The notes below the pieces were generated by a model. It did not search any database, was not told where the DNA came from, and saw only the letters and a program-made list of their open reading frames with translations. The position numbers and the translations under genes are program-made. A stretch of DNA of 63,668 nucleotides, taken from Moraxellaceae bacterium. Its GTDB lineage: Bacteria > Pseudomonadota > Gammaproteobacteria > Pseudomonadales > Moraxellaceae. Numbering within the stretch: position 1 is the stretch's first letter; the number at the start of each line of letters is the position of its first letter. Below are positions 50,175 through 52,930 of this stretch, in pieces. Location of the stretch: contig JBASJP010000151.1 of NCBI GenBank assembly GCA_049655345.1, forward strand, positions 1 through 63,668, read 5' to 3'.

Positions 50175-51224
50175 TCAGATTTTCATCTGCTCACTGAACA
50201 GGCCACTGCCACCTTCCTGTCCGAACCAGTCTCCGATTTCAACCTGAAACTCGCGTTTCTTGAGACCATTCCCCACCGCAAACAGGTAGGCGGTATCCGC
50301 CATTGCCGGCACCAGGCCGACCACCTCACGCCCAAGGCGACTAAGCGGATGCACCGGCATGGTCAACTGCAAGCCATCACCGCGAATGAACAACGCCTTG
50401 TTCTGACAACGCATGACAGCACGAAAACCTTCGCGTGAGACGGATCTTAGGGTGACCATGCCCTTGTTCTCGTCCCCCATCAGACCCATGTCGCGCAACT
50501 GCATGAACAATGGCTCATGAATGTCTGCATTGAAATAACCGGGGGCATCCCGACAGATGAACCCGCCAAAATCCAGACGCGCAGCCAGCATCAGAGCCTC
50601 TACATCACTGCGCGAGAGCGTGGCAAGAAATGCAAGGGTCCGCAGGCTATGCGAGCCAGGCTGTCGTACTTCATCAACCAGAACGCGCGCCCACAAGATC
50701 TGGAAGTCCTCGGCCACCGCACGTGCCGCCGATTCCTGCCAGCGCAACAACCAGTCCGCATCCACGGGGCGATCAGACAGGCTCTGCAGATCAATCGTCT
50801 CGGCCAGCAGGTCGGCACGCAAACCGATACGTCTGACGTTGAGCGTGCGACGCAAGGTCTGGATATCGGCATCCAGCCGCGCATCACGCAGTGCCTTGGC
50901 AGTACTGGGTACCCGCAGGATGTCGAGAGGATCATCCGGGGCCTGCTCGATCACGGAGCTGAAACGAATCGTCGAGATGTATTCGTCATCAGGCCTGTCA
51001 ACAATCTCACCCTGGATATTGAAGCGCTTGCGCCCCGCATGAAGATCATCAAGCTCGGCCAGCATGGCGGCAACAGCGGCCAATTCGCTCTCGCGCACCT
51101 TGTGCACATCCTTGCCACCCTGACGCAAACTCCACGGCGGCAACATGGCCGAGTCACCACCGCCAAACAGGGTATTCCAGAGCTTGTCAGCCAGCCGCTG
51201 TCGTAATGGCAGGTCACCGGTCAT
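50175..51224 (-). CDS. Hypothetical protein, DUF2806-like
   Basis: ATG 51224 lies 7 nt after the HMGR stop (TGAgacgtatATG); 349 aa. The central block DADWLLRWQESAARAVAEDFQILWARVLVDEVRQPGSHSLRTLAFLATLSRSDVEAL matches my recollection of the DUF2806 signature (DxxW...LWArILagEvxxPGsfSlRTL..L..Ls). No catalytic motif recognised. Confidence 0.65.
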   Translation of the reverse strand: MTGDLPLRQRLADKLWNTLFGGGDSAMLPPWSLRQGGKDVHKVRESELAAVAAMLAELDDLHAGRKRFNIQGEIVDRPDDEYISTIRFSSVIEQAPDDPLDILRVPSTAKALRDARLDADIQTLRRTLNVRRIGLRADLLAETIDLQSLSDRPVDADWLLRWQESAARAVAEDFQILWARVLVDEVRQPGSHSLRTLAFLATLSRSDVEALMLAARLDFGGFICRDAPGYFNADIHEPLFMQLRDMGLMGDENKGMVTLRSVSREGFRAVMRCQNKALFIRGDGLQLTMPVHPLSRLGREVVGLVPAMADTAYLFAVGNGLKKREFQVEIGDWFGQEGGSGLFSEQMKI

Positions 51225-51231
51225 ATACGTC

Positions 51232-52401
51232 TCACTTGCGATTACGCCCAAGCTTGTCGTGGCTGGACACCCACTGGTCAGCCACAATGGCGGAGGAAAG
51301 CGACAACTCGCCGCACAGCACAGTGGCGGCGACAATCTCGGCAAGTTTCCGGGCCTTACCATCGCCGTAGCAGCCCATCACTTCGAGGCACTCGCGCTGC
51401 GTAGGAAGACCCGTACCGCCGCCATAGGACGCCACAATCAGTGCGGGAATGGTTGCCGAAAAATAATAGTCACCGTTGGGCCTGAGTTCGCCATGCACAA
51501 ACCCGGCTGACGACTCCGCCACGTTTGCCACATCCTGGCCACAGGCAATGAACATGGCGGTAATGCCATTGGCAAAATGCGCCCCGTTGTTCACGGAGCC
51601 GGCCATCAGCGCGCCCATGTTGGACAGCTGGCGCTGCCGGAAGAGCGCCTCGCCCGAGGTATGCATGACATCGCGGATCAGTGCAGCCGGCAGGGTGATT
51701 TCGGCCACCACACGCTTGCCGCGCGTATGCAGGGCGTTCACGTGCGAGTGTTTCTTGTCGGTATCAAAGTTGGCGGCCAGCGAGAAGTGCTCAAGCCCGG
51801 CCGGTTTCTGCGCCAGAATCCACATGCAGGCTTCGCGCGTTGCCTTGGACACCATGTTCTGGCCGGCGGCATCGCCCGTGGTGTAACAGAAACGCAGCCA
51901 GCGCATCTTTCCCATGCTGTATTGTTCGATATGCCGCAGCTTTCCCGAGCGCGTAGTGGATTCTGCTGCCGCACGAATGGCCGGCAGGTTTGCATCCACC
52001 CAGACACCAAAGTCACGTGCATGGCGGGCATTCTCAAAAACAAACACCGGCGCGCGCTGCATGCTGTCGTCAATCACGGTGGCAATGACGCCACCTGCTT
52101 CGCGCGTGAGTCGCATGCCACGGTTGTAACTGGCCAGGAGGGTGCCTTCGGTTGTCGCCATCGGCACATAAAACTCGCCTGCCGCGTGCTCGCCATTAAC
52201 GAGTAGCGGGCCGGCAAAACCCATGGGGATCTGGGCAACGCCAGCAAAAGACTCGATATTTCCCGGCAATACGGCAGGATCAAATGAAAAGCTGCCGGTA
52301 TGGGCAAGGGCCGCACCGGTTTCATCGGAAACCACAGCGCGACGTGCGGCCGCCATGTCGCGGGTATAGTCGTTGTCTGTGTCGCGAGGAAGTTTTTTCA
52401 T
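51232..52401 (-). CDS. Class I (eukaryote/archaeal-type) HMG-CoA reductase, soluble catalytic domain
   Basis: Class I motifs NIESFAGVAQIPMGFAGPL, VPMATTEGTLLASYNRG, TGDAAGQNM, NFDTDKK, GRGKRVV-like TRGKRVVAE, ACGQDVANVAESS, GGGTGLPTQ, VLCGELSL and VSSH. Start set to ATG 52401 (389 aa); the ORF-track TTG at 52443 has no RBS. Confidence 0.88.
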   Translation of the reverse strand: MKKLPRDTDNDYTRDMAAARRAVVSDETGAALAHTGSFSFDPAVLPGNIESFAGVAQIPMGFAGPLLVNGEHAAGEFYVPMATTEGTLLASYNRGMRLTREAGGVIATVIDDSMQRAPVFVFENARHARDFGVWVDANLPAIRAAAESTTRSGKLRHIEQYSMGKMRWLRFCYTTGDAAGQNMVSKATREACMWILAQKPAGLEHFSLAANFDTDKKHSHVNALHTRGKRVVAEITLPAALIRDVMHTSGEALFRQRQLSNMGALMAGSVNNGAHFANGITAMFIACGQDVANVAESSAGFVHGELRPNGDYYFSATIPALIVASYGGGTGLPTQRECLEVMGCYGDGKARKLAEIVAATVLCGELSLSSAIVADQWVSSHDKLGRNRK

Positions 52402-52465
52402 TGTTTTTGTTGTTCTTGTGAGTCGTTTGCTGCTGCCTGCCAATGATGCCAGACACCCTGCCGAC

Positions 52466-52930
52466 TCATGTCAGCGGTGGCATGAACTCGGCCAGCTTGT
52501 CGGAAGTCTTGCGCAAATTGATCGAGAGCAGGGAGGCAACGCCCTTGAGGATCTTGATGCCGATTTCCGGATGCAGCTTGAGGATCATCTCGAAGCCCTT
52601 GCGCGTGAGAACGATCAGACTGGACGAGGTGCAGGCGCGGATGCTGGCAGAGCGGGTCAGCTTGTCAATCAGCGCCATCTCGCCAATGGAGCCCCCCTTG
52701 GCCAGCGTGGTGATGACAACCGGCTGGGCATTCTGGTTGAACTTGATGACGTCGAGCGCACCCGAGGCAACAAAGCAGACATAGTCGCCCTTCTCGCCCT
52801 CCTTGAAGACGAACTCGCCGGGCTCGATCTTGTTGAAGAACATGTACTTCTCAATGGTCTGCAGCTCCTGGGCATTCAGACCGGAAAAGATGGGAATCAG
52901 ACTCAGATGGTCCGACATACGATCGCTCAT
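52466..52930 (-). CDS. Stand-alone cyclic-nucleotide-binding (CAP-family) domain protein
   Basis: 154 aa. Beta-roll with the phosphate-binding cassette GGSIGEMALIDKLTRSASI and a GAGGAAG RBS. No DNA-binding or enzymatic domain follows. Confidence 0.85.
   Translation of the reverse strand: MSDRMSDHLSLIPIFSGLNAQELQTIEKYMFFNKIEPGEFVFKEGEKGDYVCFVASGALDVIKFNQNAQPVVITTLAKGGSIGEMALIDKLTRSASIRACTSSSLIVLTRKGFEMILKLHPEIGIKILKGVASLLSINLRKTSDKLAEFMPPLT

What the first reader, a model, noticed from the sequence alone, without database searches (positions are those of the whole stretch)
51232..52401. Class I HMG-CoA reductase in a gammaproteobacterium with catalytic residues apparently intact
Bacterial HMGRs are mostly class II. 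This ORF instead carries class I motifs throughout (listed in the feature). By eye, all four class I catalytic positions are conserved: Glu in PMATTEG, Lys in TDKK, Asp in CGQD, and His in VSSH (aligned to the KSH motif of human HMGR, H866). It lacks any membrane domain. Laterally acquired class I HMGRs have been described in a few gammaproteobacteria such as Vibrio, where their role outside a full mevalonate pathway remains unclear. An intact-looking enzyme without pathway partners nearby suggests a non-canonical role, for example mevalonate or HMG-CoA turnover, a redox function or production of a signal.
Basis: partly seen in the sequence, partly recalled or inferred. Interest (0 to 1): 0.6.

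Follow-up and report, generated by a model that had tools for sequence, protein, structure and literature searches.

The report
FcrA-type fatty acyl-CoA reductase, not HMGR
This gene looks like the cholesterol-pathway enzyme HMG-CoA reductase, but it most likely belongs to the FcrA family described in 2025, look-alikes that turn fatty acyl-CoA into fatty alcohol for wax-ester storage lipids, so it is a mislabelled member of a known family.

Summary
The ORF is real: minus strand 51232-52401, 389 aa, Pfam HMG-CoA_red 408 bits, class I fold (model pLDDT 94, TM about 0.9 to archaeal and human HMGR). All four catalytic residues are present (E85, K216, D290, H381) and dN/dS is 0.02-0.08. The genome uses the MEP pathway. 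HMG-CoA synthase and diphosphomevalonate decarboxylase were found in none of 41 related genomes.

It is probably not an HMG-CoA reductase. Three residues that hold HMG are replaced (S684 to Ala, K735 to Ser, L862 to Trp), whereas all 20 canonical or HMGS-linked homologues keep them. A 98%-supported branch puts it with the aromatic-862, Lys735-less radiation. These are the marks of FcrA (Grossi et al. [quoted passage not shown]

The genome and all 24 family relatives encode a WS/DGAT wax synthase. In one orthologous locus the gene lies between WS/DGAT and a FadD-type ligase.

Its guess of a non-canonical role was right, but the specific roles it proposed are not supported. Earlier reports of this scan reached the same FcrA reading on other genomes. 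Differences from the studied FcrAs: no N-terminal Lad domain, Ala rather than Glu at 684, Asp at 688, and a co-resident AcrB-type reductase. No enzyme of this subclade has been assayed.

The parts
51232..52401 (-). fcrA-like gene: 389-aa soluble class I HMGR-fold protein, predicted fatty acyl-CoA reductase
   Evidence: ORF and translation; PF00368 408 bits; 389 aa is the usual length of the close homologues; AF2 model pLDDT 94, TM 0.9 to 6hr8 and 1dqa; dN/dS 0.02-0.08
52147..52149 (-). codon of catalytic Glu85 (human E559)
   Evidence: invariant in alignment A1
51754..51756 (-). codon of catalytic Lys216 (human K691), in the DKK motif
51532..51534 (-). codon of catalytic Asp290 (human D767)
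51259..51261 (-). codon of catalytic His381 (human H866) on the C-terminal flap helix
51775..51777 (-). codon of Ala209, at the position of HMG-carboxylate-binding Ser684 (Glu360 in N. pharaonis FcrA)
   Evidence: Ser in 20 of 20 canonical or pathway-linked enzymes, Ala in 60 of 61 clade members; paper
51763..51765 (-). codon of Asp213, at the position of cis-loop Cys688
   Evidence: Cys in 20 of 20 references, Asp in 61 of 61 clade members
51622..51624 (-). codon of Ser260, at the position of Lys735, which forms the salt bridge to HMG (Gly411 in N. pharaonis FcrA)
   Evidence: Lys in 20 of 20 references, Ser in 61 of 61 clade members; paper
51271..51273 (-). codon of Trp377, at the position of Leu862 (Trp528 in N. 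pharaonis FcrA)
   Evidence: Leu in 20 of 20 references, Trp in 61 of 61 clade members; aromatic in 57 of 58 rows on the FcrA side of the tree; paper
52402..52465 (-). 64-nt spacer upstream of the gene with an A-rich leader; no consensus sigma-70 promoter or terminator found

Best explanation
The gene most likely encodes an FcrA-type fatty acyl-CoA reductase. This is a soluble enzyme with the class I HMG-CoA reductase fold and catalytic machinery (Glu85, Lys216, Asp290, His381 on a closing C-terminal helix). By analogy with the assayed FcrA, it would use two NADPH to reduce a long-chain acyl-CoA thioester, through a bound aldehyde, to the primary fatty alcohol and free CoA. The pocket that holds the carboxylate arm of HMG in true reductases is remodelled. 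The salt-bridge Lys735 is Ser260, Ser684 is Ala209, Cys688 is Asp213 and Leu862 is Trp377. HMG-CoA should therefore be excluded and an alkyl chain accepted. The alcohol would then be esterified by the genome's WS/DGAT wax synthase into wax esters, a storage lipid typical of this lipid- and alkane-degrading lineage (uncultured Moraxellaceae). Shown here: the fold, the catalytic residues, the pocket substitutions, the tree placement, the absence of the mevalonate pathway, the presence of WS/DGAT, and linkage to WS/DGAT and FadD in orthologous loci. Inferred, not shown: the substrate, its chain length, the cofactor and the wax-ester role.
For: (1) Of the columns conserved in both sets, 57 are identical between 20 reference HMGRs (14 lying 1-2 kb from HMG-CoA synthase, 6 canonical) and 61 clade members. 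Only six substitutions are fixed differently, and five of these lie in HMG-binding elements: S684A, C688D, K735S, N750G, L862W. (2) Grossi et al. 2025 (PMC11948995) define FcrA by a conserved E/K/D/H tetrad, Leu862 replaced by a bulky residue (Trp528), Ser684 replaced (Glu360) and the HMG salt-bridge Lys replaced by a small residue (Gly411). Purified Pb-FcrA reduced C14 and longer acyl-CoA with NADPH, did not reduce HMG-CoA, and was not inhibited by simvastatin. (3) All seven landmarks of N. pharaonis FcrA (236, 360, 367, 411, 441, 528, 532) equal the P0001 positions (85, 209, 216, 260, 290, 377, 381) plus 151, so the two share an indel pattern that human HMGR lacks. (4) In the IQ-TREE tree a 98% SH-aLRT branch separates the 13 canonical and pathway-linked rows from 58 rows without Lys735, 57 of which have an aromatic residue at 862. 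The query lies in a Trp862 subclade whose nearest outgroups (P0122, P0124, P0125) have a ~125-aa N-terminal extension; P0125 has the Glu/Gly/Trp triple of the archaeal FcrA. (5) HMGS and MDD were found in 0 of 41 relatives, and HMGS, MVK and MDD are not found in the own genome. (6) WS/DGAT is present in the own genome at 521.7 bits (cut-off 310) and in 24 of 24 family genomes. (7) In L096 the 74%-identical orthologue lies between WS/DGAT (same strand, about 230 nt upstream) and an AMP-binding FadD-type ligase. In L099 (73%) WS/DGAT lies 1.9 kb away with two alpha/beta-hydrolases and two acyl-CoA dehydrogenases. (8) Five relatives at least 98% complete (G005, G008, G015, G016, G021) have WS/DGAT and this gene but no strong AcrB-type hit. 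The two family genomes without this gene (G014, G023) have the AcrB type. G015 is unpublished. (9) The score is below the curated class I HMGR cut-off.
Against: No member of this subclade has been assayed. The tested Pb-FcrA carries the N-terminal Lad domain, which is absent here. Position 684 is Ala, not the Glu discussed in the paper. No experimentally validated FcrA sequence could be placed in my tree, so membership rests on signature residues, numbering and proxies. The paper itself notes that 12 of its 59 modelled FcrAs may fit only smaller molecules and that fcrA often occurs without WS/DGAT. I could not measure the pocket, because the tools return no model coordinates. This genome also has an AcrB-type reductase (PRK07201, 947 bits), so the gene is not needed to explain wax-ester synthesis here. 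WS/DGAT is common in this order (7 of 16 other families), and relatives are not independent samples, so co-occurrence is weak evidence. In the window itself the neighbours are unrelated to lipid metabolism (yhdP, CN-hydrolase, cNMP-binding protein, DUF2806). The taxonomic labels of some MAG contigs, including L096, may be unreliable.
Confidence: 0.75

Rival explanations
1. It is a reductase of the FcrA radiation whose substrate or product use differs from wax-ester synthesis. Examples are a shorter, branched or 3-hydroxy acyl-CoA, or fatty alcohol made for ether lipids or another product.
For: Ala209 and Asp213 replace the Glu684 arrangement of the studied FcrAs, and the acidic residue sits four positions later. 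Asp215 and Lys217, which contact the 3-hydroxyl region of HMG in the human enzyme (my own knowledge of Istvan and Deisenhofer), are kept. The paper reports FcrAs that fit only small molecules and FcrAs without WS/DGAT. One sister-group genome, G028, has no WS/DGAT. An AcrB-type reductase already covers the wax-ester route in this genome.
Against: WS/DGAT and FadD flank the orthologue in L096. WS/DGAT is present in 24 of 24 family genomes. The Trp862 and small-735 combination is the one linked to long alkyl chains in the paper.
Confidence: 0.15
2. It is a genuine but orphan HMG-CoA reductase or mevalonate dehydrogenase. It would link mevalonate with HMG-CoA, which the genome's HMG-CoA lyase then splits, as in the first reader's turnover idea and in analogy to the Pseudomonas mevalonii mvaAB system.
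For: The catalytic tetrad, Asn755, Arg590, Asp690, Lys692 and the CoA-binding residues are conserved. HMG-CoA lyase fragments are present in the genome, so HMG-CoA is a native metabolite. Public annotation calls the protein hydroxymethylglutaryl-CoA reductase.
Against: Lys735, Ser684 and Leu862 are replaced, whereas all 20 enzymes that are canonical or linked to HMGS keep them. The protein falls on the FcrA side of a 98% branch. An assayed FcrA does not reduce HMG-CoA. The score is below the curated equivalog cut-off. The gene is never next to HMG-CoA lyase or a transporter in 80 loci.
Confidence: 0.07
3. It is a non-functional relic or pseudoenzyme.
For: It has no pathway context in the window, and the leader before the ATG has no clear Shine-Dalgarno sequence.
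Against: dN/dS is 0.02-0.08. Identity is 71-99% across 80 species genomes with an intact frame. All catalytic residues are invariant. The model is confident.
Confidence: 0.02

Closest known systems
FcrA, the fatty acyl-CoA reductase derived from class I HMGR (Pb-FcrA of 'Ca. Promineifilum breve', assayed; N. pharaonis FcrA, modelled; Grossi et al. 2025, ISME J 19:wraf035, PMC11948995)
   Same: Both have the PF00368 fold and a conserved Glu/Lys/Asp/His tetrad. Both have Trp at the Leu862 position and a small residue at the HMG salt-bridge Lys position, with Ser684 replaced. The spacing of all seven landmark residues is identical (offset 151). Both occur in genomes without the mevalonate pathway and with WS/DGAT. 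In one orthologous locus the gene is flanked by WS/DGAT and FadD, as in Halovenus.
   Different: This protein has no N-terminal Lad (long-chain alkyl carrier) or ACP domain; it is 389 aa of core only. It has Ala rather than Glu at 684, with an acidic residue at 688 instead. It is a separate, tight gammaproteobacterial subclade (71% identity or more) that has not been assayed. It co-exists here with an AcrB-type reductase.
Canonical class I HMG-CoA reductase (EC 1.1.1.34; human HMGCR catalytic domain 1DQA; Methanothermococcus thermolithotrophicus 6HR7/6HR8)
   Same: The fold is the same (TM about 0.9, rmsd 1.7-2.6 A over more than 370 columns). Sequence identity is 35-41%. The catalytic residues, Asn755, Arg590 and the CoA- and NADPH-binding elements are shared.
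   Different: Ser684, Cys688, Lys735, Asn750 and Leu862 are all replaced. DAMGMN reads DAAGQN. Inserts of one and one residue around 735-750 are missing. There is no HMGS, MVK or MDD in the genome. The score is below the TIGR00533 cut-off.
AcrB/Maqu_2507-type and FarA/Maqu_2220-type bacterial fatty acyl-CoA reductases (SDR/NAD_binding_4 fold)
   Same: The predicted reaction is the same (acyl-CoA to fatty alcohol, NADPH) and so is the downstream partner (WS/DGAT). One AcrB-type gene is present in the same genome (G000:C238, PRK07201, 947 bits).
   Different: The fold and catalytic mechanism are unrelated. According to the paper, those enzymes also reduce free aldehyde, whereas FcrA does not.
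Pseudomonas mevalonii MvaA (class II, degradative HMGR, with HMG-CoA lyase MvaB)
   Same: Both are HMGR-family enzymes in a bacterium without isoprenoid synthesis through mevalonate.
   Different: MvaA is class II (TIGR00532 scores only 29 bits here), is NAD-dependent, and forms an operon with the lyase. None of these applies here.

Membership tests
FcrA (HMGR-derived fatty acyl-CoA reductase) | Class I HMGR fold with conserved Glu559/Lys691/Asp767/His866 equivalents | tested here: met
   E85, K216, D290 and H381; TM 0.9 to 6hr8 and 1dqa
FcrA (HMGR-derived fatty acyl-CoA reductase) | Leu862 replaced by a bulky residue (Trp528 in N. pharaonis) | tested here: met
   Trp377; Trp in 61 of 61 clade members against Leu in 20 of 20 references
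FcrA (HMGR-derived fatty acyl-CoA reductase) | The HMG salt-bridge Lys (K735; printed as Lys795 in the paper) replaced by a small residue | tested here: met
   Ser260; Ser in 61 of 61 clade members against Lys in 20 of 20 references
FcrA (HMGR-derived fatty acyl-CoA reductase) | Ser684 replaced (Glu360 in N. pharaonis) | tested here: inconclusive
   The residue is replaced, but by Ala209 and not Glu. An acidic residue sits at 688 (Asp213) instead. The sister group keeps Ser.
FcrA (HMGR-derived fatty acyl-CoA reductase) | Placement in the monophyletic FcrA clade, apart from canonical class I HMGR | tested here: met
   A 98% SH-aLRT branch separates the 13 canonical or pathway-linked rows from 58 others, including the query. 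Caveat: no assayed FcrA sequence could be included; the clade was recognised by its signature, by Lad-like N-terminal extensions and by numbering (offset 151).
FcrA (HMGR-derived fatty acyl-CoA reductase) | Host lacks the mevalonate pathway | tested here: met
   HMGS, MVK and MDD not found in the own genome (92.7% complete); HMGS and MDD in 0 of 41 relatives; Dxr present
FcrA (HMGR-derived fatty acyl-CoA reductase) | Association with WS/DGAT wax synthase (frequent, not universal) | tested here: met
   Own genome 521.7 bits; 24 of 24 family genomes; adjacent in L096 and 1.9 kb away in L099
FcrA (HMGR-derived fatty acyl-CoA reductase) | Reduces C14 and longer acyl-CoA with NADPH; no activity on HMG-CoA; not inhibited by statin | not testable with these tools
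   This needs an enzyme assay. The pocket volume could not be measured because model coordinates are not returned.
FcrA (HMGR-derived fatty acyl-CoA reductase) | N-terminal Lad or ACP domain (present in only some FcrAs) | tested here: not met
   The protein is 389 aa and the HMGR domain spans residues 18-386. The feature is optional according to the paper.
Class I HMG-CoA reductase, EC 1.1.1.34 | Curated equivalog score (TIGR00533) | tested here: not met
   348 bits against a cut-off of 441.8
Class I HMG-CoA reductase, EC 1.1.1.34 | HMG-binding residues Ser684, Lys735 and Leu862 | tested here: not met
   Ala209, Ser260 and Trp377
Class I HMG-CoA reductase, EC 1.1.1.34 | Mevalonate-pathway partners in the genome | tested here: not met
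Class II HMG-CoA reductase | Similarity to class II models and structures | tested here: not met
   TIGR00532 29 bits against a cut-off of 260; class II PDB chains E about 1e-5

The most novel reading that the evidence does not exclude
The Lad-less Ala684/Asp688/Ser735/Trp862 subclade, which is nearly invariant across Moraxellaceae, Alcanivoracaceae, Ketobacter and strain HdN1, may be a distinct specificity class within the FcrA radiation. It could act on a substrate typical of alkane and lipid degraders, such as branched (isoprenoid-derived) or 3-hydroxy acyl-CoA. It could also run in reverse as a CoA-acylating alcohol dehydrogenase that converts alkane-derived alcohols straight to acyl-CoA without spending ATP. 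Either would explain why it is kept alongside an AcrB-type reductase.
Probability: 0.1. Interest if true: 0.55.

Novelty: new member of a known kind. Interest (0 to 1): 0.3.

Why it matters
Public databases, and NCBI and JGI annotation, still call this protein and hundreds of close relatives hydroxymethylglutaryl-CoA reductase (NADPH). Taken at face value, that label suggests a puzzling orphan mevalonate enzyme in MEP-pathway gammaproteobacteria. Recognising it as an FcrA-type reductase removes the puzzle and corrects metabolic reconstructions of wax-ester-producing, hydrocarbon-degrading Moraxellaceae and Alcanivoracaceae. It also gives a simple residue test (positions 684, 735 and 862) that separated every pathway-linked enzyme from every orphan in my sample. 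The compact 389-aa core form could also be of practical interest as a small fatty-alcohol-forming enzyme. The family itself is already published, so the advance is one of assignment, not discovery.

Tried and rejected
(1) Gene neighbourhood as a guide to function. The yhdP / CN-hydrolase / cNMP-binding / HMGR-like arrangement is confined to the window's genus (18 of 80 loci), and DUF2806 lies downstream in only 6 of 80. Elsewhere the neighbours are housekeeping genes (argC, bactofilin, erpA, metG, pyrG-kdsA-eno, dtd). So the window's neighbours are not functional partners.

(2) Phylogenetic footprinting of 76 upstream regions found only lineage-specific promoter-like elements and an Alcanivoracaceae 5'-UTR hairpin. 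No shared operator appeared.

(3) Before I found the FcrA paper I considered a cationic distal group such as carnitinyl-CoA, because the pocket loses Lys and gains Asp and Trp. I dropped this in favour of the published explanation of Trp862 and the small residue at 735 as alkyl-chain features. Literature searches for it found nothing.

(4) Literature searches on orphan class I HMGR in Vibrio, Alcanivorax and gammaproteobacteria returned nothing specific.

(6) The paper's supplement names no Moraxellaceae, Alcanivorax or Vibrio member.

(7) An automatic ORF picker chose wrong frames in four high-GC loci. I redid those with tblastn.

(8) Co-occurrence with WS/DGAT in the sister group (4 of 5 genomes) is consistent but not discriminating.

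(9) I did not run complex prediction. Oligomerisation was not the open question, and a pass would only reflect likeness to solved HMGR tetramers.

Full report
**Observation.** The finding's coordinates hold a real gene on the minus strand: ATG at 52401-52399, stop TGA at 51234-51232, 389 aa (P0001). Pfam HMG-CoA_red matches end to end at 408 bits. NCBIfam prefers the class I model (TIGR00533, 348 bits) to the class II model (TIGR00532, 29 bits), but 348 bits is below the curated equivalog cut-off of 441.8. The best solved relatives are the archaeal enzyme 6hr7 (8.5e-86) and the human and plant enzymes (about 1e-61 to 1e-63). Class II structures are near noise.

Asn755, Arg590 and the CoA-binding Ser/Asn/Arg/Arg of 565-571 are also kept. 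An AlphaFold2 model built on a 49-sequence alignment is confident (pLDDT 94, pTM 0.92). It superposes on archaeal and human class I HMGR with TM about 0.9. Pairwise dN/dS against orthologues is 0.02-0.08.

**Host and orphan status.** The window is contig C151 of a 2.74-Mb, 465-contig genome that is 92.7% complete. Close homologues carry names such as "MAG: Moraxellaceae bacterium", and cultured relatives include Agitococcus, Paraperlucidibaca, Fluviicoccus and Alkanindiges. HMG-CoA synthase, mevalonate kinase and diphosphomevalonate decarboxylase were not found in this genome. A Dxr fragment of the MEP pathway is present. HMGS and the decarboxylase were found in none of 41 related genomes, 24 of which carry this gene.

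The gene is not a recent import. Its GC content (about 0.60) matches its surroundings, and it is present in 22 of the 24 other genomes of the family sampled. One of the 41 relatives, G015, is unpublished. It contributes only one row to each of these tallies and to the AcrB comparison below.

**Neighbourhood.** On the minus strand the order is maf, rng, yhdP, a CN-hydrolase, a stand-alone cNMP-binding protein, the gene, then a DUF2806 gene 7 nt downstream. This arrangement is limited to the window's own genus (18 of 80 related loci), and DUF2806 follows in only 6 of 80. In other lineages the gene sits among unrelated housekeeping genes. The window's neighbours therefore say nothing about function.

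**The pocket.** The alignment to the human enzyme showed that Ser684 and Lys735 are Ala209 and Ser260 here. From my own knowledge of the human structure papers, both residues bind the terminal carboxylate of HMG. To test whether this matters I needed reductases of known role.

In a 400-genome sample of the class, 59 genomes have some class I-like homologue and 43 have HMG-CoA synthase. In about 30 of these genomes the two genes lie 1-2 kb apart, so those are bona fide pathway enzymes. I fetched 14 of them and added six canonical-looking cluster representatives.

All 20 keep Ser684, Cys688, Lys735, Asn750 and Leu862. The 61 members of the query clade (71% identity or more) are fixed for Ala, Asp, Ser, Gly and Trp at those positions. 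Fifty-seven other conserved columns are identical between the two sets. Only six substitutions differ, and five of them lie in the cis-loop, at the salt-bridge Lys, beside His752/Asn755 or on the flap helix. The chemistry is conserved and the acyl-binding pocket is remodelled.

**Identification.** Earlier notes of this scan on other genomes pointed to "FcrA". I checked this in the source. Grossi et al. 2025 (ISME J 19:wraf035, PMC11948995) show that a large monophyletic group of "class I HMGR" homologues are fatty acyl-CoA reductases. Purified Pb-FcrA uses NADPH, reduces acyl-CoA of C14 and longer, does not reduce HMG-CoA or a free aldehyde, and is not inhibited by simvastatin.

The paper names three pocket changes. 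Leu862 becomes a bulky residue in all FcrAs (Trp528 in N. pharaonis). Ser684 becomes Glu360. The universally conserved salt-bridge Lys (printed as Lys795) becomes a small residue (Gly411). These are the positions my blind comparison had picked out.

All seven numbered landmarks of the N. pharaonis enzyme (236, 360, 367, 411, 441, 528, 532) equal the P0001 positions plus 151. The two proteins therefore share an indel pattern. Human HMGR does not share it: D767 to H866 spans 99 residues against 91 here.

**Tree.** In an IQ-TREE analysis of 71 sequences, a branch with 98% SH-aLRT support separates the 13 canonical and pathway-linked rows from 58 others. Of those 58, 57 have an aromatic residue at position 862 and none shows a clear Lys735. 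The query clade (99%) lies in a Trp862 subclade. Its nearest outgroups are a 56-62%-identical sister group and then 508-520-aa forms with a ~125-aa N-terminal extension. One of those (P0125) has exactly the Glu/Gly/Trp triple of the archaeal FcrA. I could not include an assayed FcrA sequence, so clade identity rests on these proxies.

**Functional context.** The genome encodes a WS/DGAT wax synthase (TIGR02946, 521.7 bits, cut-off 310; G000:C97) and an AcrB-type reductase (PRK07201, 947 bits; G000:C238). WS/DGAT is present in all 24 family relatives.

Five relatives that are at least 98% complete have WS/DGAT and this gene but no strong AcrB-type hit. The two family genomes without this gene have the AcrB type.

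In locus L096 the 74%-identical orthologue lies between a WS/DGAT gene (same strand, about 230 nt upstream) and a FadD-type AMP-binding ligase. That is the three-gene wax-ester set the paper describes in Halovenus. In L099 (73% identical) WS/DGAT, two alpha/beta-hydrolases and two acyl-CoA dehydrogenases lie within 6 kb.

Co-occurrence by itself is weak evidence, because wax synthase is common in this order and relatives are not independent samples.

**Verdict.** The protein is most likely an FcrA-type fatty acyl-CoA reductase that supplies fatty alcohol to WS/DGAT (confidence about 0.75 for the enzyme type, lower for the wax-ester role). The protein is not a functional HMG-CoA reductase in any likely reading.

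The main uncertainty is that this compact subclade has never been assayed. It lacks the Lad domain, has Ala at 684 and Asp at 688, and co-exists here with AcrB. A different chain length or substrate within the FcrA radiation remains possible (about 0.15). A true HMG-CoA or mevalonate role is unlikely (about 0.07), even though HMG-CoA lyase is present in the genome.

The family was published in 2025, and this scan has reached the same reading on other genomes. This is a new member of a known kind, and its main value is in correcting annotation.

Noticed in passing
L019:606-12766 (G004:C13, a sister genome); also G003, G006, G017, G019, G020 and G024; not in this genome: Sister genomes carry a second HMGR-like paralogue, about 41% identical to P0001. 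It is a 911-aa fusion of a ~140-aa N-terminus, the HMGR domain and an APH/EcKL-type kinase domain. It sits in a same-strand cluster with a UbiA-like prenyltransferase, an MMPL/RND-like transporter, a PPDK_N plus PEP-utilising enzyme, a LolA-like protein and two unknown genes. It has Glu684, Phe862 and no Lys735. Earlier scan notes describe what looks like the same conserved lipid operon.
   Followed up: partly
window 52466-52930 (-): A stand-alone 154-aa cyclic-nucleotide-binding domain protein with no output domain lies 64 nt upstream of the gene. It is found with the gene only in the window's genus (18 of 80 loci).
   Followed up: partly
window 50175-51224 (-): A DUF2806 / TIGR03899-family gene (349 aa) starts 7 nt after the stop codon of the HMGR-like gene. 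This adjacency occurs in only 6 of 80 related loci.
   Followed up: partly
L102 (G000:C446) and L103 (G000:C396): HMG-CoA lyase is present in this genome, but only as two fragments at contig ends (profile positions 108-293 and 4-149 of 300). They may be one gene split by the assembly or two copies.
   Followed up: no
L033, L080, L098, L100, L085, L096 (public MAG contigs): Contigs labelled Pedobacter sp., Myxococcales, Acidobacteriota, Cytophagaceae and Burkholderiales carry 71-88%-identical copies of this gammaproteobacterial gene. L033 (labelled Pedobacter) also has the full genus-specific maf-rng-yhdP-CN-hydrolase-cNMP synteny. At least some of these are probably mis-binned contigs.
   Followed up: partly
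L067, L074, L084, L086, L088: about 50 nt upstream of the gene's start codon: In Alcanivoracaceae a hairpin that contains the ribosome-binding site (for example CCGCTCTTCC...GGAGCGG) precedes the GTG start, behind a conserved TGCTATCC -10-like box. The stem sequence varies between loci. This may be a translational control element.
   Followed up: no
L025-L036, L046, L083: 40-70 nt upstream of the start codon: Within the window's genus a recurrent GCCAAT ... GCGGTAAAACA / GGCACAA pair of boxes about 20 nt apart precedes the gene. The window's own species (with L021 and L022) lacks it and has an A-rich leader instead.
   Followed up: no
L039-L052, L050, L071, L090 (Paraperlucidibaca, Fluviicoccus and related MAGs): A PF10118 'predicted metal-dependent hydrolase' gene (about 290 aa) lies 0.6-1.5 kb upstream of the HMGR-like gene in 11 loci. 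An alpha/beta-hydrolase (about 300 aa) recurs nearby in 8 loci, including the WS/DGAT-linked L099.
   Followed up: partly
(representative clusters P0122-P0271): Most of the 150 nearest 50%-identity clusters of 'class I HMGR' lack Lys735, and 68 of 112 carry Glu or Asp at position 684. Many are fused to extra domains (about 500, 600, 800, 900 or 1000+ aa). One clade has Arg at 684 with Phe or Tyr at 862. The radiation is far more varied than the two FcrAs studied so far.
   Followed up: partly
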